Origin: Escherichia phage cardinal
Sequence record: PQ567651.1
DNA length: 64,000 bases
Reading direction: 5' to 3' (one strand)
The translations under genes and the position numbers were made by a program. Below are positions 8,332-42,491 of the stretch, piece by piece; position 1 is the stretch's first letter, and each line of letters opens with the position of its first letter. Under the pieces are notes generated by a model. The model did not search any database and was not told where the DNA came from. It saw nothing but the letters and a program-made list of their open reading frames with translations.

Positions 8332-8787
8332 TCACGATCCCACATTCCCATTTTTGATACCATAAATAGAATCATAAGGGCTTGCCTCTACGAACTCCTT
8401 ATCTGCGTAAGCGATAAGTTTATTTTTGAGATCTTCATTTTGTGTGTATTTAAGATACAAACCACGTTTGACAATCTTCTCCCGTAAAGAAGTCCAGGTA
8501 TCTTCATCATAATCTTTAACTAATCTGCCTAGACGTTTATAATATGCTTGTTCTTTTTCTCCTGTATATCTTAGATCTCCGGTTAAAATAGAAGATGCAA
8601 TATTGTAATCATAAAACAAACATGCTTTTCTCCACATCATATATTGTTCCACACAAGTAAATTCGACAGAACTTGTGATAGAATTATTATACTTGGGAGC
8701 TAAAGGTTCAATAAAAGATGATAGATACCAGTTGCTAAATTCATCTTTTGCCGAGAAAAAGAACACATACTTGTCAGTAATCCGCAT
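8332..8787 (-). CDS. NADAR (YbiA/DUF1768-like) domain protein, putative ADP-ribose N-glycosidase
   Basis: 151 aa; FFFS..DEFSN, CVEQYMMWRKA, YKRLGR, WTSLREKIVKRGLYLKYTQNEDLKNKL and SPYDSIYGIKNG align with the conserved blocks of E. coli YbiA. Confidence 0.65.
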   Translation of the reverse strand: MRITDKYVFFFSAKDEFSNWYLSSFIEPLAPKYNNSITSSVEFTCVEQYMMWRKACLFYDYNIASSILTGDLRYTGEKEQAYYKRLGRLVKDYDEDTWTSLREKIVKRGLYLKYTQNEDLKNKLIAYADKEFVEASPYDSIYGIKNGNVGS

Positions 8788-27566: not shown

Positions 27567-27593
27567 AAAGGAGGCGAAAGCCTCCTTTATTTA
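27567..27593 (+). terminator. intrinsic terminator
   Basis: aaaggaggc-gaaa-gcctccttt followed by atttat. Confidence 0.5.
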
Positions 27594-27798: not shown

Positions 27799-27967
27799 AG
27801 GGGAAGAAAATGCTTACAGATGATGAATATAAAGCTATCCAAGAAAAACTAACGGAGCTTGAAATTCTTGCTGTCAATATTAAAGATCAATCACATGCTG
27901 GAAAGTTACTACATCAAGAGATCAATAAAATTAAGCAGATGATATTCTTTTGGACGGAGGATTAAAA

Positions 27968-28624
27968 ATGACTGTTAAGCATATTTCTTTTGATGTATGG
28001 AACACTCTTATTACTGCTAATCCTTTGTATGCAGAAGAGCGCAACAAGGTAATTGCCGAGTATGCCTCTTGTTCTGAGGCAGAAGCAGCAACTGTATATA
28101 AAGAAGTAAAAACTCTCCTGGATTTAAGAGCAGAAAAAGGCATTTGTGGAACATCTAGAAATGCTTGGGAAACACTTTCTGCTCATTTGAACATTGATCT
28201 TGATAAAGTAGATGGGTTAAAAAGAGACTGTTTAGCAATGTTTATAAAACATCCTCCAATATTAAACCCTGAACTTTGCAAGAAGTTGGAAGAGCTAAGT
28301 TCAACCTATTCTTTGAGTATTAAAAGCAATACCAATTTTGTACCTGGTAGTTTCTTAGCTGTATATTCTGGCTTGACAAAATTACCATTTGACTTTATGC
28401 ATTTTTCTGATGAGTTTTGCTTGTGTAAACCAGATCCCAGGTTTTTTAAACTCTCTTTTGATGAAATGGTAACGTTTGATCTCGCACCAGAGGAGATCTT
28501 ACACGTTGGAGATAGTTTGATCTATGATGGAAAAGCTGTTGACATAGGGATGAAGTTCTGTCATATTATTAATCCAGAAGACTTGTTGGCTAAACTTAAA
28601 AAAGAGGAACTTATTAATGCGTAA
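27968..28624 (+). CDS. HAD-superfamily hydrolase-like protein with atypical motif I
   Basis: Motif I ISFDVWNTL (Asp nucleophile, but Trp where the second Asp is expected), motif III CKPDPRFF, motif IV HVGDSLIYDGKAVD. Confidence 0.55.
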   Translation: MTVKHISFDVWNTLITANPLYAEERNKVIAEYASCSEAEAATVYKEVKTLLDLRAEKGICGTSRNAWETLSAHLNIDLDKVDGLKRDCLAMFIKHPPILNPELCKKLEELSSTYSLSIKSNTNFVPGSFLAVYSGLTKLPFDFMHFSDEFCLCKPDPRFFKLSFDEMVTFDLAPEEILHVGDSLIYDGKAVDIGMKFCHIINPEDLLAKLKKEELINA

Positions 28625-29474
28625 TCAAATTCAACATTTTGCTAATATTTTTACTAACCTGAAGGAAGCAAAATTTAACATTGCAGATTATTCCAAGCTA
28701 AAGTTTGGTAGTAACCAGGCAGCAAAAAGAATGGGGCGCATTCTGGCTGAAAGTTTCTTTTCCAAGTATGAAGAACGACTGGTAAATGAAAGTTTTGTTG
28801 TTATTCCATCTCCATATAACTATGTGAAAAATGCAGCTACAGTGTTATCTGAACATTTTGTAGATCACCTCAACTACCTAATCTCTATCAAAGGAGGTAA
28901 AGCAGTGGAGTGGGATATCGTTCATCGTAAAGTGAGCTATATCAATGATTATGGATTTCTTAGCAAAGAAGATCGTAAGGCTTTGATCGATGGTGACACT
29001 TTCTCTATCAATCGTGATTTCTGGGGTAATAAAACTCTGATTTTCATTGATGATGTTAATATTACAGGAACGCACGAAGAAAAACTTATTGAAATTTTAG
29101 ACAAAGAAGGTGTTGAAAACGATACGTTTTTCCTGTACTTTGCAAAGTATGAAGGTACAGAAGCCAACACCGAAGCTGCACTTAACTTCAACTATATCAA
29201 TAACCTGGCAGCTTTTATTAAAATGATTAAGCAAGAAACTGATGCTAAATGTTTGGTTCGTCCTATTAAGTATCTAATGAGTCAAAGCGAAGTTGATTTT
29301 AAAATTGCACTTTCACAGCTTCCTTTGTATTATGTAGAACAACTGTTCTTTGGTTGCCTTGCAGAAGGCTACAATAACATTGAAAAATATAAAGAGAACT
29401 TTGATTTCCTGCGTCAATTTTTTGAAAGCAACATTATCAACAAATCTAATGTTAAAGGGGATTATTATGTCTAA
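28617..29474 (+). CDS. phosphoribosyltransferase (PRTase type I) domain protein
   Basis: PRPP-binding loop LIFIDDVNITGTH (hydrophobic-DD-xx-TG-T); overlaps the HAD gene stop, so probably co-translated. Confidence 0.55.
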   Translation: MRNQIQHFANIFTNLKEAKFNIADYSKLKFGSNQAAKRMGRILAESFFSKYEERLVNESFVVIPSPYNYVKNAATVLSEHFVDHLNYLISIKGGKAVEWDIVHRKVSYINDYGFLSKEDRKALIDGDTFSINRDFWGNKTLIFIDDVNITGTHEEKLIEILDKEGVENDTFFLYFAKYEGTEANTEAALNFNYINNLAAFIKMIKQETDAKCLVRPIKYLMSQSEVDFKIALSQLPLYYVEQLFFGCLAEGYNNIEKYKENFDFLRQFFESNIINKSNVKGDYYV

Positions 29475-30183
29475 TAAAGTAATGACTTTCGGAGATCCTA
29501 TCACCAATATTACAGAAAAAGATTTTGGGCGTGTAGCAACAGATAAAGATGGTGTCTTAAGAATTCGTGTACAAGGTATTACAGCACAGGATGAATATGC
29601 TGTGTATGTTTCAGGTCTTAACTATATTGATGATCGCATTACACAAAACTTTGCACTGATCGGTGGTGTAGAGAAAATGTATTGGGAAGATGAAATTGTA
29701 ACAAGTTATCCGGCAGGTATCATTGAGGTATACGGTGATCTTTTAGCAGCAGCCGAGAGAGGCGATATAGACGCTATAGCACACTGCTGTAACTGTTTTT
29801 GCACTATGGGTAGTGGTATTGCACCAAAAATTAAAAGCAAGTGGCCTGGTGCGTTTAAAGCAGATTGTGCCACTAAACGTGGTGATTATAAAAAATTAGG
29901 TACGTTTACCAAATATACAGAAAACAATTTGACAATTTATAATTTATATGGACAATATGGTTATAGTCGTCGTGAGGAAGGTAAGCGTGACCTGAATTAT
30001 GAAGCTATCTACAATGCGTTAGATAGTATGGGAGACGATGTTGTATCTTCAGGCGGTAAAGTTGTAGGTTTACCGATGCTGGGTTGTGGTTTGGCTGGAG
30101 GGTCTTGGAATATTGTAAAACTTATGATCGAAGAAACTCTAGTAAACAAAGGTTTAAATGTAATTGTTTACAAACTGAAATAA
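29467..30183 (+). CDS. macrodomain protein (TARG1/DarG-like), putative ADP-ribosyl hydrolase
   Basis: C-terminal ~150 aa align with human TARG1 as recalled: AIAHCCNCFCTMGSGIAPKIKSKW vs [23 protein letters not shown], and VGLPMLGCGLAGGSWNIVKLMIEETL...VIVYKL vs [26 protein letters not shown]...ITVYTL; N-terminal ~90 aa unassigned. Confidence 0.65.
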   Translation: MSNKVMTFGDPITNITEKDFGRVATDKDGVLRIRVQGITAQDEYAVYVSGLNYIDDRITQNFALIGGVEKMYWEDEIVTSYPAGIIEVYGDLLAAAERGDIDAIAHCCNCFCTMGSGIAPKIKSKWPGAFKADCATKRGDYKKLGTFTKYTENNLTIYNLYGQYGYSRREEGKRDLNYEAIYNALDSMGDDVVSSGGKVVGLPMLGCGLAGGSWNIVKLMIEETLVNKGLNVIVYKLK

Positions 30184-30192
30184 GGAGAAAGT

Positions 30193-30399
30193 ATGGCAGG
30201 TGTTTTAGCAGTATTAGGTTGTTTTATTGTTGTGTTTTTGATTGTGTTAATCCCTAGTTGGCTGCTGCTTTTAGCATACAACTATATGATTGACATTATC
30301 GGTTTAGACTGGCATCATGTTCCTGTAACGTTTTGGAGTGTAGTCTGTGTGACGTTCATTCTTGCGGTACTTCGTGGTATCTTTCAATCTAACAAATAA
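30193..30399 (+). CDS. hypothetical small membrane protein
   Basis: 68 aa, two hydrophobic helices. Confidence 0.4.
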   Translation: MAGVLAVLGCFIVVFLIVLIPSWLLLLAYNYMIDIIGLDWHHVPVTFWSVVCVTFILAVLRGIFQSNK

Positions 30400-30426
30400 G
30401 AGAGGATTTTTATATGCGTAAAGTAA

Positions 30427-30663
30427 ATGTTGAAGTGCTTGAAAAAATTTAGAAACACTCGTGATTGTACTATCGGCAAGGTTTACGAGGCTATTCTCCT
30501 TGAAGATGGAGATCAAGTTCCTGCCCCGTATCACGCCTTTAATGGTCAGATTAGCAAAGTGGAAGGTGGTATTGCTATTTGCTTTATTGATGACGTAGGT
30601 GATGCTGTAGCTTTCCCTATCATTAACAAAGAAGATAAACTTAAAATTACAGAACTGAACTAG
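30427..30663 (+). CDS. hypothetical small protein
   Basis: 78-aa ORF; start uncertain (a 12-codon ORF with a better RBS lies just upstream in another frame). Confidence 0.35.
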   Translation: MLKCLKKFRNTRDCTIGKVYEAILLEDGDQVPAPYHAFNGQISKVEGGIAICFIDDVGDAVAFPIINKEDKLKITELN

Positions 30664-30740
30664 TTGACTTTCTTTAAAAACAGTTTATAGTATAAGACAT
30701 AGAGCGGAGGATTGTCCTCCGCATTAAAGAGGAGAAAAGA

Positions 30741-31718
30741 ATGCAACTGGGTTTCCCAATTATTGATGTGGTTGTTTTAGTGGGTATTTTAGTCTTGTCG
30801 ATTTGTATTGACTTCTTTGGACACAGAGAAAACAAAGAAATTTCATTTAAATCGGCAGTTGGTTGGTCAATTTTCTGGATTGGAGTATCATTAGCCTACT
30901 ATGGTTTTGTATACTTCCAACACGGTGCTGATTTTGCGAGCTTGTTCTTGAGTGGGTATGTGTTGGAGAAATCTCTTTCTGTAGATAACTTAGTAGTATT
31001 TGTGGCAGTATTCGCAAGTTTTGGTATTAAAAGCACACACTTGCAACACAAGATTCTACTTTGGGGTATTGCAGGTGCGATTGTCTTCCGAGGTGTGTTT
31101 GTAGCAGTAGGCACTTACTTGTTGAGTTTGGGCTGGTATGTTAATATCTTCTTCGGTGCTGTCATCCTTTTCTGTGCGGCTAAAATGGTATTCGCTGGAG
31201 ATAATGATGCAGAAGTTGATTACTCTAAACACTGGGCTACTCGCATTGTTCGTAAGCTGTTCCCTGTATCTGATCAGATGGATGGTGAGAAGTTCTTCAC
31301 AATCAAAAATGGTGTTCGTGTAGCAACTCCGGCTCTGGTTTGTGTGTTTGTAATGGAAATGGTTGACGTAATCTTTGCAGTAGACTCTGTTCCAGCAGTA
31401 ATTGCAGTGACACAAGAACCTCTGCTTGTATTTTCTTCGATGCTCTGTGCAATCTTAGGTTTACGTGCTCTGTTCTTTGTTCTTAGTGTTGCACTGAAGT
31501 ATTTGGTTCATCTGGAGAAAGCAGTTATCGTAGTCCTGGTATTTGTGGGTGCAAAACTGATGTATCATCCGTTTGCAGAAACTCTGCACGCAAAAATGAG
31601 TTTCCTGCCAGCACACATTGATCCGACGATCAGTATGTATATTGTGTTAGGTACTCTTGGGTTGGGTGTTGTTGCAAGTTTAATCTTCCCTGAAAAAGAA
31701 GATCAGACTGTTGCTTAA
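30741..31718 (+). CDS. TerC-family integral membrane protein
   Basis: Multiple transmembrane helices and both TerC signature repeats: LEKSLSVDNLVVFVAVF and MVDVIFAVDSVPAVIAVT. Confidence 0.75.
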   Translation: MQLGFPIIDVVVLVGILVLSICIDFFGHRENKEISFKSAVGWSIFWIGVSLAYYGFVYFQHGADFASLFLSGYVLEKSLSVDNLVVFVAVFASFGIKSTHLQHKILLWGIAGAIVFRGVFVAVGTYLLSLGWYVNIFFGAVILFCAAKMVFAGDNDAEVDYSKHWATRIVRKLFPVSDQMDGEKFFTIKNGVRVATPALVCVFVMEMVDVIFAVDSVPAVIAVTQEPLLVFSSMLCAILGLRALFFVLSVALKYLVHLEKAVIVVLVFVGAKLMYHPFAETLHAKMSFLPAHIDPTISMYIVLGTLGLGVVASLIFPEKEDQTVA

Positions 31719-31724
31719 TTCATT

Positions 31725-31746
31725 AAGCCCCTTCGGGGGCTTTGTT
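31725..31746 (+). terminator. intrinsic terminator
   Basis: agcccc-ttcg-ggggct followed by ttgttg. Confidence 0.5.
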
Positions 31747-31950
31747 GAGGTGATCTGATGGTGGTTTTACGTGTTCTTTGGATTCTGTTTGAAAATATTT
31801 GTTTTGCTCTAGGGTTGTTTTGTTTGATTTTTATCTTGACAACATATATTGATAACCATACAATTACTATCAACAGGAACGGAGAACAGATGTATTGTTT
31901 CTCTAGGGATTTTAAAAATTGTGTTGAGACTTTAAATGAGAGGGTTACAA

Positions 31951-32541
31951 ATGAAAAACATTAAATCTTTTATTGTTGCAGTTGTTTTAGGTAGTGCATT
32001 GCTGGTAGGTTGTGATGATTCTGAAAATGTACAAAATCAACGTTACCAACAAACACCAAATCAGATGGTAGATGAACAATATGTAAATCAGCCTGCACCT
32101 CAAGTTGTTCAAGCAGCACCTGCACAACCTTCAACAGTTGTTGTGCAAGGAGGCGGCAGTGGTTCTTCTGGCGTAGGTGAGTTTGCTACAGGTATGCTTC
32201 TTGGTCATATGTTGAGTGGTAATAGTGGCGGTGGTGGTTATAGAGATGGCGGTAGCAATACAACAATTATTAATAACAACGCTGCTCCTACAACTAACAG
32301 TAAAGCATATACAACACAAAAACATAGTTTTTATGATAAACAAGGGAATACATATACAACAACTAAACAAAACACAATTAAGCAGCAAAGTGTACAAACG
32401 TATTCACGCCCATCAACAACAAAAGTGAATAGTGATTACTCTGCTCGTAAGTCTTACTCAAGCCCTATTAGCTCTTATAGTAAGTCTTCGAAAAGTTATT
32501 CTTCGTCGAAACGTAGTTTTAGTAGCTCACGTCGTCGTTAA
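31951..32541 (+). CDS. lipoprotein with low-complexity S/T/N-rich C-terminal region
   Basis: Signal peptide with lipobox LLVGC; remainder rich in Q/S/T/G with SYS..SK repeats. Confidence 0.55.
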   Translation: MKNIKSFIVAVVLGSALLVGCDDSENVQNQRYQQTPNQMVDEQYVNQPAPQVVQAAPAQPSTVVVQGGGSGSSGVGEFATGMLLGHMLSGNSGGGGYRDGGSNTTIINNNAAPTTNSKAYTTQKHSFYDKQGNTYTTTKQNTIKQQSVQTYSRPSTTKVNSDYSARKSYSSPISSYSKSSKSYSSSKRSFSSSRRR

Positions 32542-32576
32542 TAATTTAATACAGATTAAATAAGAAGGAGAAACAG

Positions 32577-33428
32577 ATGAAACTAGAAGTTGGTAAAGTG
32601 TATCGCCTGGAAGGTTGGATCTTTAATCAAGAAATTCTTGAGAAGAATAAAGATGGTTTTGAGTTTGTTGGTACTACCAAAGAAAGTATGCACGATGACG
32701 AATACTGTAAATTCGTTGGTAAAAATACAGGTCAAGAACAATTTTGCTTTAAAAGCGCAATCGGTGATTATGCTTCTGTAATGCCAACACCAGAAAAGAC
32801 TTCGAAGCAATATACTGTCTTTGGTGTAAAACTTGAAGAACTTGTAGAACACCCACGTTTTGAAGAGTTCAAGGTTGCTGCAATGCGCAAGCATTCTGAA
32901 ATTAAAATACATAATTTGTTTGATTTAGAAGATCGGTTTGATATCTTTATGTATGATCGCAGGGAAAAGCATTTTGATGCAACGACTTCAAAATTTGCTG
33001 CAACAGAGGATATTAAAATCCTTGATGTTGATACCTTTCTTGAGAGTGTATCGTTTGTATTCATCCATAAATACAAGAAACGTAGTGATCATAAACGTGT
33101 GAAAGGAACTCCTCGTAAGAAACGTACTGTAAACAAAGCAACTTTGCACTTCACTTCTGGTGATAAATATACTCTCAAAGGGTTTGAAAGTGTTTTGTAT
33201 GATGCTGGAACGGGTAATATCAAGTTTATTATTAAGGCAACCTACAAAGGTACGGTATTGCACGAAGAGGCTGTTACACTACCTGTATTCGATATCTCTC
33301 GTGTTGAGGTACGGGGTGTTAAAGAGTCCTTCGATCTGGATTTCTTAACTGCTAATACCACGGGTTATGTTAATCTGGAAGCAGATGGAGCATTTATTAC
33401 TACAAATTATTTAGATATGTTTGTTTAA
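32577..33428 (+). CDS. hypothetical protein
   Basis: 283-aa ORF with AAGGAG RBS. Confidence 0.5.
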   Translation: MKLEVGKVYRLEGWIFNQEILEKNKDGFEFVGTTKESMHDDEYCKFVGKNTGQEQFCFKSAIGDYASVMPTPEKTSKQYTVFGVKLEELVEHPRFEEFKVAAMRKHSEIKIHNLFDLEDRFDIFMYDRREKHFDATTSKFAATEDIKILDVDTFLESVSFVFIHKYKKRSDHKRVKGTPRKKRTVNKATLHFTSGDKYTLKGFESVLYDAGTGNIKFIIKATYKGTVLHEEAVTLPVFDISRVEVRGVKESFDLDFLTANTTGYVNLEADGAFITTNYLDMFV

Positions 33429-33496
33429 TACTTAACTTGTGTTATGATGGTGGTACAGAGGTATCACCATTTACTAAAGAATATGGAGGAAATTGA

Positions 33497-34600
33497 ATGT
33501 CCAGTCCTTTTATCAGTGCCGTAAAAAGCAAACCGTCTGAAATGAGTGTATTCACGGCAACAACAGAAAAAAGTAAGTCTTTGTTTGCTCCAAGTGCTAT
33601 GGATGCAAGCCCTGTATATGCCCCTGCTGTTGCACGCCCTGTACAAATGCTGCCTCCAATGTCTCGTGAAGAGATTGAACAGGTTGGTGCTGATGCAGGA
33701 CTTACTCTTCGTAACCTTAATGCTGAAGTGCTTAAACACCAGCGTTCATCTCAGGGAGATGAAATGAGTGAACGTTTAACTGCGCTTATTAAGCAAGCAA
33801 AGCAACTTGATCCTAACTCTATTAAACAATCTAAAGGTTTAGGTAAACTAGTTAAGAAAGTTTTAGGTATGAAAGAAGATTTGTTTGGAGAATTTGACAC
33901 CATCAATAACCGTATTGAAGGTTTGGTAAAGACACTCCAAACAGACTTGAAAAAAGAAGAAGATTCTTTACGATATCTGCAACGTTTAGAGGAAGCTATT
34001 GCAAAATATGCTCTTAGCTTAAACAGGGATATAGAGCTTCTAACAGCTACTTATGAAAAAGAAGAAGTTCGCCTTAATACACTACCTGAAAATGAGGTAG
34101 AAGAGCGTCAACGTACTCGTGATACTATGGATCTGCTTGAAATTCGTATTGCAGACCTGAAAGCCTTACGCTTACTATGTGTTCAGATGGGGCCACGTGT
34201 ACAAAGTATGCAGAAAGTATCTGCAAGTTTGATGCGATCAGCCCGTAATATTGTGAATAATGTTATTCCTGCTTACTCTGCAAACTTTTCTATGTATATT
34301 GAAAGTCTACGCCAGAAGAAAGCAGCCGATACACAGAACAATGTACTGAATGAATTTAATGCTGCTATTGCAATGGGTAGTGATCTGGCTGCACAAAACC
34401 AGATTGAAGCTACACAACTTGCTAATCGTCAAGTATTGGATATTGAAACATTGCGTCGTGATCAAGAAAACTTAGTTAAAATGTTGGAAGAAACTAACCG
34501 AATCAACACTGAAGCCCGTGCTGCTCGTATTGATTACATTCAAGAAGTGCAGTCTCTTGAAGATGGTATGATTCAAACTGTTAAACGTGGTCTACTTTAA
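33497..34600 (+). CDS. TelA-like (toxic anion resistance / KlaB family) protein
   Basis: 367 aa, coiled-coil-rich; C-terminal blocks VIPAYSANFSMYIESLRQKKA, NEFNAAIAMGSDL and IDIETLRRDQENLVKMLEE match the TelA family pattern (assigned from memory). Confidence 0.55.
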   Translation: MSSPFISAVKSKPSEMSVFTATTEKSKSLFAPSAMDASPVYAPAVARPVQMLPPMSREEIEQVGADAGLTLRNLNAEVLKHQRSSQGDEMSERLTALIKQAKQLDPNSIKQSKGLGKLVKKVLGMKEDLFGEFDTINNRIEGLVKTLQTDLKKEEDSLRYLQRLEEAIAKYALSLNRDIELLTATYEKEEVRLNTLPENEVEERQRTRDTMDLLEIRIADLKALRLLCVQMGPRVQSMQKVSASLMRSARNIVNNVIPAYSANFSMYIESLRQKKAADTQNNVLNEFNAAIAMGSDLAAQNQIEATQLANRQVLDIETLRRDQENLVKMLEETNRINTEARAARIDYIQEVQSLEDGMIQTVKRGLL

Positions 34601-34613
34601 GGAGAAATATATT

Positions 34614-34820
34614 ATGAATATTAAAATTTACAAACTGTCTGGTTCTATGATTGCTGTTCAGTATGACAATGAAGATCGTTATGTTCTCCTCCAGGATGCT
34701 TGGTTAGATGATCCTAATGTATTCACTGTCCTGCGAGAACTACGTGCTGTCTATACCTATTCTTCTAAAGATGGTTTTGACAATTCAACAATGGAATTGG
34801 TAAAAGAGGAGAATGTGTAA
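34614..34820 (+). CDS. hypothetical small protein
   Basis: AAGGAG RBS then ATG (MNIKIYKL...). Confidence 0.4.
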   Translation: MNIKIYKLSGSMIAVQYDNEDRYVLLQDAWLDDPNVFTVLRELRAVYTYSSKDGFDNSTMELVKEENV

Positions 34821-35020
34821 TGAGTAAAGATATTCACTTAACTCGTGAAGAATTGCAAACCATTATGGAAGATGCTTTCATTGATGGTTGGAAACAAGGT
34901 CAAGAATCAGATTGGTATGATGCCGAAGATTTTTTGTATTATCATATGACTGCACCTGTAGACGAGCAAACACACTCTGAAACAACTTTGGCTTTAATTG
35001 ATCTTAAGGCTGGTGTATAA
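34820..35020 (+). CDS. hypothetical small acidic protein
   Basis: 66-aa ORF, translationally coupled. Confidence 0.4.
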   Translation: MSKDIHLTREELQTIMEDAFIDGWKQGQESDWYDAEDFLYYHMTAPVDEQTHSETTLALIDLKAGV

Positions 35021-35583
35021 TGGGGTGTTTTAGTTTCTTGTGCAAAGAGTCTGGTAATGCTGCTCTTTCTACCTCTTTCGATGGCTCTCCTTGCTACCTA
35101 TTTCTTTTGAAAGGTGGTAAGGTTGTCGAAGAGATGTATGGGAATTATGATAGCTATGGTAGTGTTTTCTCTAACGAAGAAGATAAACATGGCAATCGTA
35201 AAAGATTCAAGTGGTCTATGCCTTGGGAAGAAGTTTGTAATTTGATGTTCTCTTCCGATCTTGGAGATGGGATTGCTCTGGTATTAGAAGAGCACTTTAC
35301 AGGCGAGATCCCAACAGAAAGATCTGAAGAAGATCCTAACCAGGGTTGGGGTGATGGGGAAGAAGATCCAGATTGCTTCTTCAGCACTGAAAATAATAAA
35401 TTTAAACGTGTTGACAATCCTTACCACAAAGTGCATAATACTTGCATTGAGACAGAAGAAGACTCAAAGCTAGAAATTGAAGATGATTTAGTTGTAACTA
35501 TCTCTTTAAACGAGTTGCAAAAGATCACCAGAGAGGCTTTCTATTTAGGCTTGAGAGCAGGTAAAGGAGAAGACAGTGCTTAA
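35020..35583 (+). CDS. hypothetical protein
   Basis: 187-aa ORF, acidic. Confidence 0.45.
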   Translation: MGCFSFLCKESGNAALSTSFDGSPCYLFLLKGGKVVEEMYGNYDSYGSVFSNEEDKHGNRKRFKWSMPWEEVCNLMFSSDLGDGIALVLEEHFTGEIPTERSEEDPNQGWGDGEEDPDCFFSTENNKFKRVDNPYHKVHNTCIETEEDSKLEIEDDLVVTISLNELQKITREAFYLGLRAGKGEDSA

Positions 35584-35845
35584 ATTTAATATCAAAGACG
35601 ACAAATCAGATGAACCTAAATGTTTTGGAGAACTTGACGTAGGTGATACATTTGTATATTATGTTGCCTATCAAGATTCTGGTTTAGATACGTTCAGAAA
35701 CTTAGTGTTTATTAAAGTTAATACAAACCAAGCAATGTGTCTGAACGGTTCGCAAAGAGGTCAAATTAGCTGTATTTCGTATGATACAGAAATGGTAGAA
35801 GTGGATTTAGAAGTTACTAACATTACACTCAGAAAGGAGAAATAA
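35576..35845 (+). CDS. hypothetical protein
   Basis: 89-aa ORF. Confidence 0.4.
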   Translation: MLKFNIKDDKSDEPKCFGELDVGDTFVYYVAYQDSGLDTFRNLVFIKVNTNQAMCLNGSQRGQISCISYDTEMVEVDLEVTNITLRKEK

Positions 35846-35846
35846 T

Positions 35847-36640
35847 ATGTCCAATAAAATCAGTCTTAAAAAACGTCAAGAAACTCTTACCGTATCTCTG
35901 CGTAAGAAAAAGATTAACGATGTTGTTCTTCGTGTCGGTAGCGCCTTAGATATTTCGGGTAGTATGTGTGAGCTGTATCGTGATGGCACTGTTAGTGATT
36001 TTGTAGGTAAGCTGCTGCCGTTTGGTATGAAGTTTGATGATAATGCACAGATTGACATGTGGGCTTTCAATAGTTCTTCTTTTGAACTGCCTCCTGCAAC
36101 GGCTGATGTATATGATGATTATGTCGGCTCTTGTATGTCTAACGTTTGCATCAATGGTGGTACAGCTTATGCTCCAGTAATGCAAGAGATCTATGATACA
36201 TACTTCGGTAGTGTACCTATGAAAAATATTACACGCGAAGTCGTTGAGTATGAAGAAGTTCCGGCTAAGGGTTTCCTTGCTAAACTAACTGGTAAAAAGA
36301 ACTTGTAGAAGTAACACGTACTGTTGTAGAACAGGTTGTAGATACTGATGCACAAGTTGATCGTACTCCTGCAATGATTTTCTTCCAAACTGACGGGGAG
36401 AACATGGATACTTCAGCAGTACGTAGCTTACTGAACAAACACCGCAATACGCCTGTTTACTGGTTTATGGTTGGTGTAGGTAATGCAAACTTTAAATTCC
36501 TGAAAGACTTGGCAAAGGAATACGATAATGTTGACTTTATCGGTATTGCAGATTTGTCCTTGTCTGATGAAGAACTTTACGATAAACTGTTATCCGAAGA
36601 GTTTGGTGAGTGGGTTAAAAAATTTGGAGCAAAAGCGTAA
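35847..36640 (+). CDS. vWA-domain protein (TerY-like), reading frame interrupted by a -1 shift near 36291-36300
   Basis: MIDAS motif DISGSM in frame 0 (35847..36308); the vWA domain continues as IFFQTDGENMD in the -1 frame (36296..36640); junction at ggT AAA AAG. Confidence 0.55.
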
Positions 36641-36712
36641 AAAACGCTTGACTTTGTAGAAAAGATTAGTAAAATAGACAACGTAAATTAACAACAAAGG
36701 AGATAATAAATT

Positions 36713-37309
36713 ATGACTCAGAAAATTTCCCTGAAAAAAGGTTCTAGCGAAAAAGTTTCTCTGAAAAAGATCGCACCAGCACTGAAACGCATTCGTCTGG
36801 AATTCTCTTGGAAATCTAACGAAAAACTGGATCTGGATGTTAGTGCTCTGATTTGCCGACACAATGCATCTGGTCTGCCGGAACTGTTGTCTCCTCGTCA
36901 CCTGGTGTGCTACGCGCAGAAATTTGATCCTGAACGTTCTACTTTTGCAGGTGAAGATGTTCGTGATGGTGTAGGACAGATGGAGCAGATCGATGTTACT
37001 CTGGATAATATCTCTGCTGAAGCACAGGAAATTGCATTCGTAATTACTATTGATGACGAAACGGGTAAGAAACGCCTTGGTCACGCTACCGAAGGTTTCC
37101 TTAAAATCTTCGATGATGAACGTAACGTTGAACTGCTGGATTTTGACTTCTTGGCTCCAGAACTTGCAGGTAATACCATTTGCCACGTTGCCTCCCTGGT
37201 GCGGGAAGATAATGAATGGAAACTGAAAGCATATGGTGTAGGTAAAGCTGGACTTGACATTTATGATGTAGTTAAAGCGTTTGGCGCTGGTGACGATTGG
37301 TTCGAGTAA
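36713..37309 (+). CDS. TerD-domain protein
   Basis: ISLKKG...VSLKK...LEFSWKS...LDLDVSALI...GEDVRDGVG..EQIDV...IAFVITI....FDFLAPELAGNT matches TerD/TerZ family blocks. Confidence 0.75.
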   Translation: MTQKISLKKGSSEKVSLKKIAPALKRIRLEFSWKSNEKLDLDVSALICRHNASGLPELLSPRHLVCYAQKFDPERSTFAGEDVRDGVGQMEQIDVTLDNISAEAQEIAFVITIDDETGKKRLGHATEGFLKIFDDERNVELLDFDFLAPELAGNTICHVASLVREDNEWKLKAYGVGKAGLDIYDVVKAFGAGDDWFE

Positions 37310-39314: not shown

Positions 39315-39878
39315 ATGATATTTCACATAACTCCCTATCTTTCTGGAGATATTGGAAAAGGTATCAATGACACAATAAGTGTCTTACCAGAAGATAGTTG
39401 GATTTGCCTAAGAGACATTGATACAATGTTTCTTCTTCCAGAACAACCTGCTTGGTTGGAATCAATAGTCCGTTCAAATCCTGATTTTGATGTTCTTGGT
39501 GCATCTTGTAATAGATTGGGATCAACATATCAATTATTTAATAATGAAAGAAGTGAAGATCCAAATATATTACACCACATTGAGATTGCAAAAAGAGCAC
39601 ATCTAGAATGGGGAAACTCAATAGAGGAAGTACCTACAGATGCTATCTTAGCAGGATTCTTTCTTCTCTTTCGTAAGAGTCTGTGGAATGAAATCCCTTT
39701 TGAGGAAAGATCAATACAGTTTGATATAATTTTCTCTAAAGCATTACACGCTAACAATAAAAGGCTAGGTTTATTACGTGGGCTATATTTATTTCACACA
39801 TACCGTTTAGGTAGTGATGATCCTAGGAAAGCTGTTTCACACCTTTTACATTGTCAAGACATGAATAAAATTATTTAA
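39315..39878 (+). CDS. putative glycosyltransferase-like protein
   Basis: 187 aa with D.D-like CLRDIDTMF; first gene of a four-gene cassette; weak assignment. Confidence 0.3.
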   Translation: MIFHITPYLSGDIGKGINDTISVLPEDSWICLRDIDTMFLLPEQPAWLESIVRSNPDFDVLGASCNRLGSTYQLFNNERSEDPNILHHIEIAKRAHLEWGNSIEEVPTDAILAGFFLLFRKSLWNEIPFEERSIQFDIIFSKALHANNKRLGLLRGLYLFHTYRLGSDDPRKAVSHLLHCQDMNKII

Positions 39879-39887
39879 GGAGTTATT

Positions 39888-40574
39888 TTGGAAAATACAA
39901 AAATTGGTGTTGGTGTTATTACTGTAGGTAAGCGTCCTCTTAAAGATTATCTTGTGACTGATCCTAATGCTACTTTTGTTGTACAGTATGATCGGGAACG
40001 AAAAGGTGTTGCATATGCCCGTAATGAACTGATGAAAAAGTTTTATGATGAAGGGTATGATTACTGGTTTATTTTTGATGATGATTGTTATCCGGTTGTG
40101 CCAGGTTGGGAAACATATTTTGTAAAACAGGCTAAGGAAAATGGTTGGGATTTCTTTGGTATGCCTGAATACTTTAAAGATAAAGTAAAAGGTATTGAAG
40201 GTGAAGTGGTTATTTGGGAACTAGGTATGTGCCAGTTTGGTATGTATTCCCGTGCAGTTATTGAGAAAGCTGGCTATTTCCGTTCATACACCCACGGTTA
40301 TGGATATGAAGATGCAGAGTGGATTCAGCGCGTTCCACTGGCAGGTTTGAACCGAGGTATTCTCGGCGTACCATGTCCTATTCGAATTATGGCGTTTATC
40401 CATCCTGACGATGTGTTTGGAGATAATCCTTTACCTTTTGCGAATCTGTCAAAAGAAGAGAAAGAACAGGGGATTGGTGTAAACTGGGAACAATATAAAC
40501 AATCACTGGAGGATCTTCGCAATGGTAAAACTTTTATCTCTTATGAGGAGGCTCAAAAATATGGTAAGTCCTAA
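39888..40574 (+). CDS. putative GT-A-fold glycosyltransferase
   Basis: DxD motif in YDYWFIFDDDCYPV preceded by a nucleotide-binding-like N-terminus; YGYEDAEW block. Confidence 0.5.
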   Translation: MENTKIGVGVITVGKRPLKDYLVTDPNATFVVQYDRERKGVAYARNELMKKFYDEGYDYWFIFDDDCYPVVPGWETYFVKQAKENGWDFFGMPEYFKDKVKGIEGEVVIWELGMCQFGMYSRAVIEKAGYFRSYTHGYGYEDAEWIQRVPLAGLNRGILGVPCPIRIMAFIHPDDVFGDNPLPFANLSKEEKEQGIGVNWEQYKQSLEDLRNGKTFISYEEAQKYGKS

Positions 40575-41535
40575 TACTCCTGTACTTAAGTGTGATAATA
40601 AGTTAGGCAGTGGTTGTGATTACCATCGTATTGTAATGCCGTTTGCGGGAAATACATTTAAACCTAAGAAAGACGTTTTGGTTTTTAATAGAGTGTATTC
40701 TCGTGGATCAGACGAGGTTAAACGCCTGAAGGCACAAGGTGTTAAGATTATTGTTGACTTAGATGACTTTTATTCACTTAACCCTGAACATTATATGGCT
40801 GGCGTATTTACTAATCACTCAAAGACTATTGTAGAGATGATTAAGTTAGCAGATGTTGTTACTGTAACAACAGAATATCTAGCTTACAAAATTCGTCATT
40901 TAAACCGTAATGTTGTCGTTATTAGAAACGCACTGCCTTACGACGAAGGTCAATTTACTTTGACAAAAGACCGTTATTCTGACACGCCTATTATTTGGGC
41001 TGGAGGAGCAAGCCATGAGCCTGACTTATCTCTTGTAGCTAATACATTTGATGATACACTATTGACAATTGCAGGGTATGAAGTGTATCCTTCTGCACCT
41101 GTTGGAAATAATAGTCAGTATCTAACTACTGCGGAGTGGGTTAAAGTAAAACGTAAAATTCCAAATGCACAGTATAAACCAGCTATTAAAAATTTAGGTG
41201 AGTATATGTCTGTGTATGACGGTCACAGTATTGCAATTGCTCCTCTGGTAGATAACGACTTCAACAACTGTAAAAGTAATTTGAAGATTTTGGAAGCAGG
41301 TGCAAAGGGTCTTCCTATTATCTGTTCTCCTGTGCTGCCGTACTTCAATCCGGTAGATGCAAAGGCTGTTATCTATGCAGACTCTAAAGCATCTTGGCAT
41401 TATGAAGTTGTCAAGCTAATGAGAAACCCTAGATACACAGAAGATCGTGGTATGATGCTTGCAGAACACGTTCGTCTTAATTATAATCTTGCAGATGCCA
41501 ATGAACTGCGTCGTCAAGTTATTGAAAGTCTTTAA
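40561..41535 (+). CDS. putative GT-B-fold glycosyltransferase (tandem paralog 1)
   Basis: C-terminal KSNLKILEAGAKGLPIICSP resembles the GT1/GT4 EAmA.G.PvV block; paralogous to the next gene. Confidence 0.45.
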   Translation: MVSPNTPVLKCDNKLGSGCDYHRIVMPFAGNTFKPKKDVLVFNRVYSRGSDEVKRLKAQGVKIIVDLDDFYSLNPEHYMAGVFTNHSKTIVEMIKLADVVTVTTEYLAYKIRHLNRNVVVIRNALPYDEGQFTLTKDRYSDTPIIWAGGASHEPDLSLVANTFDDTLLTIAGYEVYPSAPVGNNSQYLTTAEWVKVKRKIPNAQYKPAIKNLGEYMSVYDGHSIAIAPLVDNDFNNCKSNLKILEAGAKGLPIICSPVLPYFNPVDAKAVIYADSKASWHYEVVKLMRNPRYTEDRGMMLAEHVRLNYNLADANELRRQVIESL

Positions 41536-41546
41536 TAAGGAGCGAT

Positions 41547-42491
41547 ATGCCTAATATTATTCTTGACACACGTGGGCATGAGAGGTATAGTGTATGTGAT
41601 TTTCATAGAATCATTTTGCCATATAAACGCAAACTGACCATTAATCCTAAGCATAATATTTTTGTGTTTAATGGAGTACCAACCCGTGGAAAGCCAGGTT
41701 TCCTGGCTCTTAAACAACTTGGGTTTAAATTGGTAATGGATCTGGATGATTCTTTAATTATTCCTGAAGGGCATATGCTGGAAGGATTATTTGAAAATCA
41801 AATCCGAGATGACCTAAAATGGTTCCTTGAAAGAAGCGATCTTGTAACTACAACAACTCCGGCATTAAAGGTTGAACTAAGCCAATACAATGATAATGTA
41901 CATATTGTGCCTAACGGACTACCTTTTGATGAAGGACAGTTTGTTCTTACTAAAGATCGTTATTCTAAAAGTCCACTGGTTTGGGCGGGAAGTGAAACAC
42001 ATAAACATGATTTAGCAATTCTTCCTGATTTTGGTAAAGATTTAACTTTATGTGGATTTCGTAGAGATCACGAAGAGTTAAGTAGTGCTCAATGGTTGCA
42101 AATTAAAGAAAATATTCAACCAGATTGTGTTTATGAAGGTATTCGTCCTTATGAGTGTTATATGGAAGCATACGATGGTCATCAAATCTCCATAGCTCCA
42201 TTAGTAAATAATCATTTTAATAATGCCAAAAGTAATTTAAAAATTCTTGAAGCTGGTGCTAAAGGTTTGCCACTCGTTTGTTCGCCACGAGAGAACTATT
42301 ATACTGAAGAATTTAAAGATCTAATCTTCTTTGCTGATTCAGTTAAAGAGTGGAAAGATATTGTAGAATACTTAATCGAATCCCCTGATGTTTGTATTGA
42401 GAAAGGATTGGCTCTTGCTAAGTATGTAAGAGATAACTACAATATTGATGATTTAAATGAAACCCGCAGACTGCTTATCGAGGATTTATAA
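41547..42491 (+). CDS. putative GT-B-fold glycosyltransferase (tandem paralog 2)
   Basis: Shares CD(Y/F)HRI, DLDD, LTKDRYS, WAG, DGH.I(A/S)IAPLV.N.FNN.KSNLKILEAGAKGLP blocks with 40561..41535. Confidence 0.45.
   Translation: MPNIILDTRGHERYSVCDFHRIILPYKRKLTINPKHNIFVFNGVPTRGKPGFLALKQLGFKLVMDLDDSLIIPEGHMLEGLFENQIRDDLKWFLERSDLVTTTTPALKVELSQYNDNVHIVPNGLPFDEGQFVLTKDRYSKSPLVWAGSETHKHDLAILPDFGKDLTLCGFRRDHEELSSAQWLQIKENIQPDCVYEGIRPYECYMEAYDGHQISIAPLVNNHFNNAKSNLKILEAGAKGLPLVCSPRENYYTEEFKDLIFFADSVKEWKDIVEYLIESPDVCIEKGLALAKYVRDNYNIDDLNETRRLLIEDL

What the first reader, a model, noticed from the sequence alone, without database searches (positions are those of the whole stretch)
29467..30183. TARG1/DarG-type macrodomain protein as candidate anti-DarT or ADP-ribose-processing factor
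The C-terminal 150 aa align block-for-block with the TARG1/DarG class of macrodomains (AHC...MG(S/A)GIA, GCGL, IEE...(I/V)(T/V)VY(T/K)L). DarG macrodomains reverse DarT ADP-ribosylation of thymidine in ssDNA, and DarTG is an antiphage system. An unassigned ~90-aa N-terminal extension may provide targeting.
Basis: partly seen in the sequence, partly recalled or inferred. Interest (0 to 1): 0.78.

Follow-up and report, generated by a model that had tools for sequence, protein, structure and literature searches.

The report
Phage macrodomain likely reversing DNA ADP-ribosylation
This gene of a phi92-like E. coli phage encodes an ADP-ribose-removing macrodomain enzyme of the same family as phage T4's recently described anti-DarTG2 factor, so it most likely strips a bacterial defence toxin's marks off phage DNA; it is a new member of a kind that is already known.

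Summary
Window 29467-30183 (+) is an intact 238-aa ORF, equivalent to Phi92_gp185 and bas61_0068. Residues 85-238 form a confidently predicted macrodomain (pLDDT >90). It matches Pfam Macro above threshold. Its best solved relatives are TARG1 (TM 0.91), BT1257, DarG and SCO6735.

It is not a DarG. It lacks the DarT-binding domain, has no darT neighbour, and has Gln163/Ala210 where TARG1 has Lys84/Asp125. This is the SCO6735-type active site (His106, Asn109, Gln163, Gly206, Gly208), and Gln163 is invariant in 44 relatives. SCO6735 removes ADP-ribose from thymidine in DNA and rescues cells from DarT.

The protein falls in phrog_335 together with T4 Tk.4 (31% identity). A 2025 preprint named Tk.4 AdfM and showed T4 needs it on DarTG2 hosts. 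The same window also carries a NADAR gene, and phi92-like phages encode a proven anti-DarT1 NADAR. Anti-DarT2 DNA de-ADP-ribosylation is therefore the best reading (about 0.6), but it is untested here.

The N-terminal 84 residues are a rare, acidic, all-beta domain. In sister phages this domain heads a MazG-like gene just upstream, so the protein arose by an in-frame deletion fusion.

The flanking HAD-PRTase_3-Ter module occurs without a macrodomain in 17 of 17 distant phage loci.

The parts
29467..30183 (+). Complete gene: a 238-aa two-domain protein (N-domain plus macrodomain). Equivalent to Phi92_gp185, PAULA_0133 and bas61_0068.
   Evidence: ORF list. 100% aa identity to EmilieFrey and intact at 100% coverage in all 54 phage records of >=95% identity. 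All 9 nt differences from EmilieFrey are synonymous.
29455..29461 (+). Shine-Dalgarno-like AAGGGGA, 5-6 nt before ATG 29467. It lies inside the 3' end of the PRTase_3 gene, whose stop codon overlaps the macrodomain gene start by 8 nt.
   Evidence: Sequence read directly. ORF coordinates 28617-29474 and 29467-30183.
29467..29718 (+). N-terminal domain (aa 1-84). Acidic (net charge -5), predicted all-beta, rare. Homologous to the N-terminus of a MazG-like protein encoded between PRTase_3 and the macrodomain gene in sister phages.
   Evidence: BLASTP against L004 ORF184 gives 28% identity, E 1e-7. Only 6 hits among 1.84 billion representative proteins, and two of those (P0123, P0126) are long repetitive proteins. 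Invariant D19, G21, R22, A24, G29, F62, G67, M71, W73 across four architectures. Charge. AlphaFold2 pLDDT 61 with six strands. No significant PDB fold match, best E 0.15.
29719..30180 (+). Macrodomain (aa 85-238), ALC1-like class, SCO6735/Tk.4 subtype.
   Evidence: Pfam Macro. PDB sequence hits. pLDDT >90. Foldseek: TARG1 TM 0.91, DarG 0.81, SCO6735 0.78. phrog_335. The DarG models of PADLOC and NCBIfam match over the macrodomain part only.
29782..29793 (+). Active-site loop 1, H106-C107-C108-N109. Equivalent to SCO6735 His24-Val25-Cys26-Asn27.
   Evidence: HMMER alignment to 5e3b with the chain numbering offset checked. Residue roles from PMC9411070. N109 is invariant and H106 >=90% conserved in 44 relatives.
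29953..29955 (+). Gln163 codon, at the position of the catalytic Lys of TARG1 (K84) and DarG (K80). Equivalent to the essential Gln85 of SCO6735.
   Evidence: Alignments. Invariant in 44 family members. T4 Tk.4 also has Gln here, in NLYTQF. SCO6735 Q85A abolishes activity.
30082..30102 (+). Diphosphate-binding loop G206-C-G208-L-A210-G-G212. G206 and G208 correspond to SCO6735 Gly126 and Gly128. A210 replaces TARG1 Asp125.
   Evidence: Alignments. G206, L209 and G212 invariant; G208, A210 and G211 >=90% conserved.
27950..29474 (+). Upstream co-oriented genes with overlapping stop and start codons: HAD-family hydrolase (27950/27968-28624) and PRTase_3 ComF-like phosphoribosyltransferase (28617-29474). 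These are context, probably a separate module.
   Evidence: Pfam Hydrolase E 1.2e-5 and PRTase_3 E 1.2e-41. HAD lies upstream of PRTase_3 in 22 of 22 viral loci. A macrodomain gene is nearby only in the 5 Stephanstirmvirinae-type loci and in 0 of 17 distant ones.
27567..27588 (+). Terminator-like hairpin after the AAA ATPase gene, marking the upstream edge of the putative transcription unit.
   Evidence: Consensus scan. This is pattern evidence only.
30704..30722 (.). GC-rich palindromic hairpin (GCGGAGGACAATCCTCCGC) between the two small ORFs that follow the macrodomain gene and terC, marking the downstream edge of the putative unit.
   Evidence: Consensus scan. A terminator is annotated at the equivalent place in phage Paula.
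8332..8787 (-). NADAR-domain gene elsewhere in the window. It is the probable counterpart of AdfN(Bas60), the anti-DarT1 enzyme of phi92-like phages, and would be the functional partner of the macrodomain in a two-enzyme anti-DarT set.
   Evidence: Pfam NADAR E 9.2e-30. Bas60-62 encode a NADAR that neutralises DarT1 but cannot reverse thymidine-linked ADP-ribose (PMC11825919). The window is 98.7% identical to Bas61 over the 3.9-kb stretch compared. Identity to the tested protein itself was not verified.

Best explanation
The gene encodes an orphan, phage-borne ADP-ribosyl glycohydrolase of the T4 Tk.4/AdfM type.

**Proposed mechanism.**
- When the phage infects a host carrying a DarTG2 toxin-antitoxin system, freed DarT2 ADP-ribosylates thymidines in single-stranded phage DNA and blocks replication.
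- The macrodomain (aa 85-238) binds the ADP-ribose moiety through the H106/N109 loop and the G206-G212 diphosphate loop.
- It then hydrolyses the thymine-ribose bond by the lysine-independent, Gln-centred, water-mediated mechanism proposed for SCO6735, here using Gln163. This releases free ADP-ribose and restores the DNA.
- It would complement the phage's NADAR enzyme, which handles guanine-linked (DarT1) adducts. T4 likewise carries both AdfN and AdfM.
- The N-terminal 84-aa acidic beta domain is an accessory module acquired by an in-frame deletion fusion with the neighbouring MazG-like gene. Its role (targeting, partner binding, or none) is unknown.

**Shown here:** the fold, family membership, conservation of the catalytic residues, gene integrity with purifying selection, and the origin of the fusion.

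**Inferred:** the substrate (thymidine-ADP-ribose DNA) and the counter-defence role.
For: - **Macrodomain fold and class.** Pfam above cut-off, pLDDT >90, and Foldseek top hits TARG1, BT1257, DarG and SCO6735.
- **Top sequence match with a solved structure.** SCO6735 (E 3e-15) reverses DarT-made thymidine-ADP-ribose in vitro and rescues both E. coli and Streptomyces from DarT. That paper calls thymidine de-ADP-ribosylation a unifying function of the class.
- **Catalytic residues.** All five SCO6735 residues whose mutation cripples activity, or that bind the diphosphate, are conserved: His24/H106, Asn27/N109, Gln85/Q163, Gly126/G206 and Gly128/G208. Q163 and N109 are invariant in 44 relatives.
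- **Same phage family as T4 Tk.4.** Both fall in phrog_335, at E 2.3e-65 and 1.3e-65. Pairwise identity is 31%, E 1e-18, and both have Gln at the catalytic position. In a transposon screen tk.4 was the single T4 gene depleted on DarTG2 hosts, and a clean knockout sensitised T4.
- **Defence and naming libraries.** The only match in each is DarG: PADLOC E 7e-14 and NCBIfam E 5e-13.
- **A free niche.** The phage group's proven NADAR anti-DarT1 factor cannot act on thymidine adducts, and a NADAR gene lies in this window.
- **Autonomous cargo.** The macrodomain family occurs in 2794 of 50,697 phage records in varied contexts, including T4, CR3 and PaoP5.
- **Gene maintained.** It is intact at full length in all 54 records of >=95% identity, and all 9 differences from EmilieFrey are synonymous.
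Against: - No experiment exists on this protein or on any phi92-like phage. I found no data on whether Bas60-62 resist DarTG2.
- Identity to T4 AdfM is only 31%, and macrodomain substrate range is notoriously broad. SCO6735 and TARG1 also act on proteins.
- The T4 evidence is a preprint. It shows a phenotype, not enzymology.
- The two SCO6735 lysines that position DNA (Lys34, Lys89) are Ser116 and Ser167 here. However, T4 Tk.4 also has Ser at the first position, and the adjacent loop is basic (RREEGKR).
- The close stand-alone homologue P0004 is acidic (pI 4.85), unlike the electropositive SCO6735.
- The gene overlaps PRTase_3 in a manner compatible with translational coupling. It keeps its position next to HAD-PRTase_3 throughout Stephanstirmvirinae, which could reflect a functional link.
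Confidence: 0.6

Rival explanations
1. The macrodomain is an enzyme of the HAD-PRTase_3(-MazG-like)/Ter module. In this reading it acts on a small phosphoribosyl or ADP-ribose-like metabolite made by the phosphoribosyltransferase, for example as an ADP-ribose-1''-phosphatase or deacylase. That would match its database label 'phosphatase'. It would not act on DNA.
For: - Stop and start codons overlap by 8 nt at both junctions, HAD/PRTase_3 and PRTase_3/macrodomain, and the genes lie between two terminator-like hairpins.
- The order HAD-PRTase_3-(MazG-like)-macrodomain-TerC is kept in three diverged Stephanstirmvirinae lineages at 49-66% macrodomain identity.
- The N-domain is shared with a MazG-like nucleotide pyrophosphatase.
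- In PaoP5 the homologue lies next to NamPT and PRPP synthetase.
- Poa1p-type ADP-ribose-1''-phosphatases appear among the structural matches, at TM about 0.74.
Against: - In 17 of 17 more distant viral PRTase_3 loci (PRTase_3 <=50% identical), HAD is adjacent but no macrodomain lies within 6 kb.
- About 2794 phage records carry the macrodomain but only 156 carry PRTase_3.
- Homologues in T4 and CR3 have unrelated neighbours.
- The nearest characterised relatives act on DNA or protein adducts.
- Synteny within one subfamily can be inheritance alone.
Confidence: 0.12
2. It removes ADP-ribose from another macromolecule. Candidates are Asp/Glu-linked protein ADP-ribosylation or ADP-ribosylated RNA made by other host defence transferases. 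Alternatively it could tune ADP-ribosylation by a phage-encoded transferase.
For: - SCO6735 and TARG1 hydrolyse protein-linked ADP-ribose as well as DNA adducts, and SCO6735 Q85A is inactive on both substrates.
- Macrodomains process the whole spectrum of 1''- and 2''-linked ADP-ribose conjugates. They co-occur with NADAR in DNA viruses more often than chance would give (PMC9503650).
- An RNA ADP-ribosylating defence system exists (mentioned).
Against: - The only in vivo phenotype known for a phage member of this PHROG is anti-DarTG2.
- No ADP-ribosyltransferase gene was seen beside the gene.
- Nothing in the sequence points to a protein or RNA substrate rather than DNA.
Confidence: 0.15
3. 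It degrades or sequesters ADP-ribose-derived immune signals (Thoeris-type cyclic or conjugated ADP-ribose). Alternatively it feeds ADP-ribose into phage NAD+ reconstitution, countering NAD-based immunity rather than DarT.
For: - Aravind and colleagues proposed that phage Macro and NADAR domains mainly target soluble ADP-ribose derivatives.
- The PaoP5 homologue is adjacent to NAD salvage genes.
- In Rhizobium phage Y65, HAD-PRTase_3 lies next to an NMN adenylyltransferase/Nudix gene.
Against: - No NAD salvage genes were seen near the gene in this window.
- No member of this class is known to cleave cyclic ADP-ribose isomers.
- The characterised relatives act on macromolecular adducts.
Confidence: 0.05

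Closest known systems
T4 Tk.4 = AdfM (anti-DarT factor Macrodomain), preprint 10.1101/2025.11.20.689424
   Same: - Same PHROG (phrog_335) and the same fold.
- 31% identity, pairwise E 1e-18.
- Same motifs: H-x-C-N-C, MGSG(I/V)A and NLY(G/T)Q(Y/F), with Gln at the catalytic position.
- An orphan gene in a large virulent E. coli myovirus that also carries a NADAR gene.
   Different: - Tk.4 is a single 155-aa macrodomain. The window protein carries an extra 84-aa N-terminal domain.
- The genomic context differs: the vs/tk region in T4, HAD-PRTase_3/Ter here.
- The diphosphate loop is GAGIGKG in T4 and GCGLAGG here.
- The anti-DarTG2 phenotype is shown for T4 only.
Streptomyces coelicolor SCO6735 (PDB 5E3B)
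   Same: - Best PDB sequence match, E 3e-15.
- Same lysine-less active site (His, Asn, Gln, Gly-x-Gly) and an identical GCGLAGG loop.
- A long loop after the Gln.
- It removes thymidine-linked ADP-ribose from DNA and acts as an orphan DarT antidote.
   Different: - Bacterial and under a DNA-damage-type promoter.
- Its DNA-positioning Lys34 and Lys89 are Ser here.
- No N-terminal domain.
- About 31% identity.
Human TARG1/OARD1 (PDB 4J5S)
   Same: - Best structural match, TM 0.91 and rmsd 2.2 A.
- Shares the AHC..MG(A/S)GIA, GCGL and MIEE..VY.L blocks.
- Also cleaves thymidine-linked ADP-ribose according to PMC9411070.
   Different: TARG1 uses a Lys84/Asp125 dyad. The phage protein has Gln163 and Ala210 at those positions, so that mechanism cannot apply.
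DarG antitoxin of DarTG2 (Thermus 5M3E, M. tuberculosis 5M3I; NCBIfam NF048014)
   Same: - The macrodomain part aligns: PADLOC DarG E 7e-14, TM 0.81.
- The presumed reaction is the same, removal of ADP-ribose from thymidine in ssDNA.
   Different: - No C-terminal DarT-binding domain (49 bits against a 250-bit cut-off).
- No adjacent darT gene.
- The catalytic Lys80 is replaced by Gln.
- About 22% identity.
Chimallivirus AdfM (PhiKZ gp104), PMC13309987
   Same: A phage-encoded orphan macrodomain shown to remove DarT2-made ADP-ribose from DNA and to protect the phage. It is the same kind of counter-defence.
   Different: PhiKZ AdfM is DarG2-like, with a catalytic Lys (K78), and is imported into the phage nucleus. 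The window protein belongs to the Gln-type Tk.4/SCO6735 lineage. Direct similarity between the two was not tested.
AdfN (NADAR) of T4 and of Bas60-62, PMC11825919
   Same: The same strategy: an orphan antitoxin-like glycohydrolase that cleans ADP-ribose off phage DNA. It is present in the same phage group, and a NADAR gene lies in this window.
   Different: An unrelated fold. It is specific for guanine adducts made by DarT1 and cannot reverse thymidine adducts.

Membership tests
Macrodomain superfamily (Pfam PF01661) | Profile match above the curated threshold | tested here: met
   31.5 bits against a cut-off of 22, E 1.8e-7, aa 106-217.
Macrodomain superfamily (Pfam PF01661) | Three-layer alpha/beta/alpha macro fold | tested here: met
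   AlphaFold2 pLDDT >90 for aa 83-238. 228 PDB matches at E<=0.001; the 50 listed are almost all macrodomains.
Macrodomain superfamily (Pfam PF01661) | ADP-ribose-binding loops: Asn in loop 1 and a Gly-rich diphosphate loop | tested here: met
   N109 and G206/G212 are invariant and G208 is nearly invariant in 44 relatives.
ALC1-like class (TARG1 / DarG / SCO6735) | Closest sequence and structural neighbours are members of this class | tested here: met
   phmmer places SCO6735, BT1257, TARG1 and DarG at the top. Foldseek ranks 1-13 are all from this class.
TARG1/DarG lysine-type hydrolases | Catalytic Lys (TARG1 K84, DarG K80) and, for TARG1, Asp125 | tested here: not met
   Gln163 and Ala210 occupy these positions. 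The equivalences come from PMC9411070.
SCO6735/BT1257/Tk.4 glutamine-type hydrolases | His-x-x-Asn loop, Gln at the Lys position, GCGLAGG-type loop | tested here: met
   H106, N109, Q163, G206 and G208.
SCO6735/BT1257/Tk.4 glutamine-type hydrolases | DNA-positioning lysines Lys34 and Lys89 of SCO6735 | tested here: not met
   Ser116 and Ser167 here. T4 Tk.4 also has Ser at the first position. Basic residues R168, R169, K173 and R174 follow in the loop.
DarG antitoxin (NCBIfam NF048014 equivalog) | Full-length match including the C-terminal DarT-binding domain | tested here: not met
   49 bits against a cut-off of 250. Only profile positions 4-147 of 338 match.
DarG antitoxin (NCBIfam NF048014 equivalog) | Encoded next to a darT toxin gene | tested here: not met
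   The neighbours are PRTase_3, HAD, two small ORFs and TerC. No ADP-ribosyltransferase family matched them.
Phage AdfM, Tk.4 type (phrog_335) | Homology to T4 Tk.4 and the same phage protein family | tested here: met
   phrog_335 at E 2.3e-65 (window) and 1.3e-65 (T4). BLASTP 31% identity, E 1e-18.
Phage AdfM, Tk.4 type (phrog_335) | Required for phage growth on DarTG2 hosts, or rescues cells from DarT2 | not testable with these tools
   Shown for T4 only. No data found for phi92-like phages.
Phage AdfM, Tk.4 type (phrog_335) | Hydrolysis of thymidine-linked ADP-ribose on ssDNA | not testable with these tools
   Shown for SCO6735, TARG1, DarG and PhiKZ AdfM. Not shown for this protein.
HAD-PRTase_3 (Ter-linked) module | The macrodomain co-occurs with PRTase_3 wherever the module is found | tested here: not met
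   HAD is adjacent in 22 of 22 loci. A macrodomain is nearby in 5 of 5 Stephanstirmvirinae-type loci but in 0 of 17 distant loci. PRTase_3 is in 156 phage records and the macrodomain in 2794.

The most novel reading that the evidence does not exclude
The rare acidic N-domain may be a portable adaptor. It is found fused to a MazG-like pyrophosphatase, to a macrodomain, to a third unrelated C-terminal region, and on its own. It could dock different nucleotide-processing enzymes onto one common partner. Two versions of this idea remain open:

- It binds and blocks DarT2 directly. That would make the protein a convergent, two-pronged DarG-like antitoxin, one that erases the mark and also inhibits the writer.
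- It tethers the macrodomain to the phage's HAD-PRTase_3/Ter machinery. The macrodomain would then edit a phosphoribosyl or ADP-ribose-like product of that still-uncharacterised pathway.
Probability: 0.1. Interest if true: 0.6.

Novelty: new member of a known kind. Interest (0 to 1): 0.35.

Why it matters
If correct, phi92-like phages carry a complete two-enzyme kit against DNA ADP-ribosylation: a NADAR for guanine adducts and a macrodomain for thymine adducts. These phages have a broad host range and are of therapeutic interest. T4 has the same pairing. This would extend the newly described AdfM counter-defence to a second large phage group. By homology it may extend to several thousand phage genomes, since phrog_335-type macrodomains occur in about 5% of sequenced phages.

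The finding also gives a clear example of a lysine-less, Gln-type macrodomain in a virus. That is useful for testing the SCO6735 water-mediated mechanism.

The domain fusion documents how phages reshuffle small accessory domains among nucleotide-processing enzymes.

It is not a new principle. The gene is already annotated as a macrodomain in some records, and the function was predictable from work published in 2022-2026.

Tried and rejected
- **Membership in DarG.** Rejected. Only the macrodomain half matches, the score is far below the NCBIfam cut-off, there is no darT neighbour, and the catalytic Lys is absent.
- **A TARG1-like Lys/Asp mechanism.** Rejected, because the residues are Gln163 and Ala210.
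- **The macrodomain as an obligate part of the HAD-PRTase_3 module.** Tested on 22 viral loci and on three annotated distant phages, and not supported.
- **Identifying the N-domain.**
  - Pfam found nothing credible.
  - The word-indexed protein search returned only fragments.
  - The exhaustive HMMER search returned 6 hits, two of them long repetitive proteins.
  - AlphaFold2 on a shallow alignment gave pLDDT 61.
  - The Foldseek PDB search gave nothing significant, best E 0.15, with only generic small beta-barrels such as Sm, Tudor, WYL and KOW.
  - The fold therefore stays unassigned.
- **Papers I could not read.** The Ter-system comparative-genomics paper (PMC4104200) and the LeRoux 2022 DarTG paper (PMC9250638) are not held. 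What I say about the Ter-linked 'nucleoside-like metabolite' prediction rests on citing papers and on my own knowledge.
- **DarTG2 sensitivity of Bas60-62.** I searched for data and found none.
- **Accession of AdfN(Bas60).** The supplement is not held.
Full report
**What the window is.** Over the 3.9 kb compared around the finding, the sequence is 98.7% identical to Escherichia phage EmilieFrey. EmilieFrey is Bas61 of the BASEL collection, genus Justusliebigvirus, subfamily Stephanstirmvirinae. More than 50 other phi92-like myoviruses match at a similar level. The target ORF corresponds to Phi92_gp185. Records annotate it variously as 'putative phosphatase', 'hypothetical protein' or 'putative macrodomain protein'.

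- ATG 29467 to stop 30183 is an intact 238-aa ORF. A Shine-Dalgarno-like AAGGGGA lies 5-6 nt upstream.
- Pfam Macro is matched above its curated threshold.
- phmmer against PDB sequences ranks SCO6735 (3e-15), BT1257 (3.8e-15), TARG1 (3e-10) and Thermus DarG (1e-3).
- An AlphaFold2 model built on 44 relatives has pLDDT >90 for residues 83-238.
- That model superposes best on TARG1 (TM 0.91, rmsd 2.2 A), then BT1257, DarG and SCO6735. Alphavirus nsP3 and Poa1p macrodomains rank lower.

**Which kind of macrodomain.**
- TARG1 uses Lys84 and Asp125, and DarG uses Lys80. The phage protein has Gln163 and Ala210 at those positions.
- This is the active site of SCO6735. There, Gln85 is essential, and Asn27, His24 and Gly128 are needed. 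Catalysis is proposed to run through a backbone-positioned water rather than a lysine (PMC9411070).
- I checked the numbering offset between the PDB chain and the paper. With it, the equivalents are H106, N109, Q163, G206 and G208.
- Q163 and N109 are invariant in an alignment of 44 family members.
- SCO6735 is experimentally a thymidine-ADP-ribose DNA hydrolase that rescues cells from DarT.
- The two lysines that position DNA in SCO6735 are serines here. This is a mild caveat.

**It is not a DarG.** The only hit in the PADLOC and NCBIfam libraries is DarG. However, only the macrodomain half of the profile matches, and the score (49 bits) is far below the equivalog cut-off of 250. No darT-like gene lies nearby. 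It is an orphan macrodomain.

**Link to a proven phage counter-defence.**
- The macrodomain alone finds homologues in 2794 of 50,697 phage records. These include T-even phages, rV5-like, FelixO1-like, Pakpunavirus and Vibrio phages.
- The T4 homologue is Tk.4. It is 31% identical to the window protein (E 1e-18).
- Tk.4 falls in the same PHROG (phrog_335) and also has Gln at the catalytic position.
- A November 2025 preprint found tk.4 to be the single T4 gene depleted on DarTG2-expressing hosts. It confirmed this with a clean knockout and named the gene adfM.
- Independently, a DarG2-like, lysine-type macrodomain of PhiKZ-like phages was shown to remove DarT2-made ADP-ribose from DNA (PMC13309987).
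- Bas60-62, the phi92-like phages, encode a NADAR enzyme that neutralises DarT1 but cannot reverse thymidine adducts (PMC11825919).
- I located a NADAR gene in this window at 8332-8787 on the minus strand.
- The phage thus appears to carry the same NADAR-plus-macrodomain pair as T4.

**The N-terminal extension.**
- Among the 120 listed database relatives, only P0001 (99% identical) and P0002 (53% identical, 230 aa) share it. The next-closest relatives (60-68% identity) are stand-alone proteins of about 153 aa on phage contigs of about 150 kb.
- In a sister lineage a separate gene of about 184-187 aa sits between PRTase_3 and the macrodomain gene. This lineage comprises contig L004, Klebsiella phage phi1_175008, L016 and L017.
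- The C-terminal half of that gene is MazG-like (phrog_1247 E 1.7e-23; Pfam MazG E 0.016, below its threshold).
- Its N-terminal roughly 85 residues are homologous to the window's extension (28% identity, E 1e-7).
- Relative to that arrangement, about 350 nt are missing from the window gene. The missing stretch covers the MazG-like half and the first codons of the macrodomain gene. The window protein is therefore an in-frame deletion fusion.
- Phapecoctavirus phages lack the extra gene altogether.
- The fusion is old and maintained. It is present in the 53%-identical P0002 and intact in all close relatives. All 9 nucleotide differences from EmilieFrey are synonymous.
- An exhaustive HMMER search of 1.84 billion representative proteins found the domain only six times. 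It occurs with a MazG-like domain, with another C-terminal region, alone, and in two repetitive proteins that match only its F-x-L-I-G-G...Y-W-E motif.
- Nine positions are invariant across the architectures, and the domain is consistently acidic.
- Its fold could not be assigned. AlphaFold2 gave pLDDT 61 with six strands, and there was no significant PDB match.
- It is a real, mobile, rare domain of unknown role.
- BFVD shows that other Tk.4-type phage macrodomains also carry about 90-100 extra residues.

**Genomic context and the main rival.**
- The gene lies in a co-oriented run, bounded by terminator-like hairpins at 27567-27588 and 30704-30722.
  - The run is: two small ORFs, a HAD hydrolase, a PRTase_3 (ComF-like) phosphoribosyltransferase, the macrodomain gene, and two more small ORFs.
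  - Stop and start codons overlap at the HAD/PRTase_3 and PRTase_3/macrodomain junctions.
- Downstream come TerC, TelA, a vWA-TerF-like gene and TerD. This is a phage-borne Ter cluster.
- In bacteria, a Ter-linked biosynthetic gene cluster has been predicted to make a nucleoside-like metabolite (as cited). The macrodomain could therefore belong to that chemistry.
- I tested this on 22 viral PRTase_3 loci.
  - HAD is immediately upstream in 22 of 22.
  - Ter genes lie within 6 kb in 12 of 22.
  - A macrodomain is present only in the five Stephanstirmvirinae-type loci and in none of the 17 more distant ones.
  - The annotated regions of XaC1, Rhizobium phage Y65 and CcrColossus agree.
- Conversely, most macrodomain-carrying phages lack PRTase_3 (156 records against 2794).
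- The adjacency therefore looks lineage-specific rather than obligatory. I give this rival about 0.12.

**Other rivals.** Action on protein- or RNA-linked ADP-ribose, or on soluble ADP-ribose signals, cannot be excluded from sequence alone. The class is promiscuous, and the PaoP5 homologue lies next to NAD salvage genes.

**Verdict.**
It needs three refinements: the Gln-type active site, orphan status rather than DarG, and an N-domain of fusion origin.
- The most likely function is removal of DarT2-made ADP-ribose from thymidines in phage DNA (confidence about 0.6). This is inferred from homology and conserved catalytic residues, not demonstrated.
- Equivalent phage factors have been reported in T4 (preprint, 2025) and chimalliviruses (2026), and some records already annotate the gene as a macrodomain. 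It is therefore a new member of a known kind, of moderate interest.

Noticed in passing
window 8332-8787 (-): A NADAR-domain protein of 151 aa (Pfam NADAR E 9.2e-30). It is probably the phi92-like AdfN(Bas60) anti-DarT1 enzyme described in PMC11825919. Only profile positions 9-132 of 163 match, so the C-terminus may be short.
   Followed up: partly
window 8788-10185 (-): A 465-aa protein with five CapR-homology repeats and a T5orf172 domain. It abuts the NADAR gene directly, with its stop next to the NADAR start. It may be a homing-endonuclease-like or DNA-binding element.
   Followed up: no
window 30741-37309 (+): A phage-borne tellurite-resistance-like cluster: TerC (30741-31718), TelA (33497-34600), vWA-TerF-like (35847-36640) and TerD (36713-37309). 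It is conserved across Stephanstirmvirinae, and its function in a lytic phage is unknown.
   Followed up: partly
window 36293-36297: The vWA-TerF-like gene is split into two ORFs (35847-36308 and 36374-36640). The cause is a 1-nt deletion in an A-run: A5 here against A6 in EmilieFrey and Paula, where the gene is a single 264-aa ORF. It is either a sequencing error in a homopolymer or a genuine frameshift.
   Followed up: yes
window 27950-29474 (+); loci L014-L035: The HAD hydrolase and PRTase_3 pair is invariant. HAD lies directly upstream in 22 of 22 viral loci, including jumbo phages of Xanthomonas, Caulobacter, Brevundimonas and Rhizobium. Ter genes lie within 6 kb in 12 of 22. In Rhizobium phage Y65 the pair sits next to an NMN adenylyltransferase/Nudix gene. 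This is a widespread phage nucleotide-metabolism module with no known product.
   Followed up: partly
L011 (Pseudomonas phage PaoP5) 1952-5462: The PaoP5 macrodomain homologue (44% identity) lies immediately downstream of nicotinamide phosphoribosyltransferase and PRPP synthetase. It is therefore adjacent to an NAD+ reconstitution pathway.
   Followed up: no
P0123 (4335 aa) and P0126 (766 aa), hits of the N-domain search: Two long repetitive proteins match only the F-x-L-I-G-G...Y-W-E-(D/P)-E motif of the N-domain, 20 and 6 times respectively. P0126 repeats 'GNFVLVGGPTGYNWEPETF' between collagen-like stretches. It is unclear whether this is homology or a chance short motif.
   Followed up: no
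window 39315-42491 (+): A run of glycosyltransferase-like genes, including a weak match to the TET-associated glycosyltransferase family (39888-40574, E 6.7e-5, below threshold). EmilieFrey annotates genes here as glycosyltransferases and disaccharide synthases. The run may relate to the dTDP-sugar or DNA-modification machinery suggested for phi92-like phages.
   Followed up: no
window 30193-30663 (+): Two small conserved ORFs follow the macrodomain gene within the same putative unit. One is 68 aa and strongly hydrophobic (phrog_16065). The other is 78 aa (phrog_17459). Both are of unknown function.
   Followed up: no
phage records MG065645, MG065650, MG065662 (hits H63, H104, H150): Several records labelled 'Campylobacter phage' (A145, B15, A142) carry PRTase_3 or macrodomain genes up to 99.6% identical to those of E. 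coli phi92-like or Phapecoctavirus phages. This suggests mislabelled hosts or contaminating phages in those deposits.
   Followed up: no
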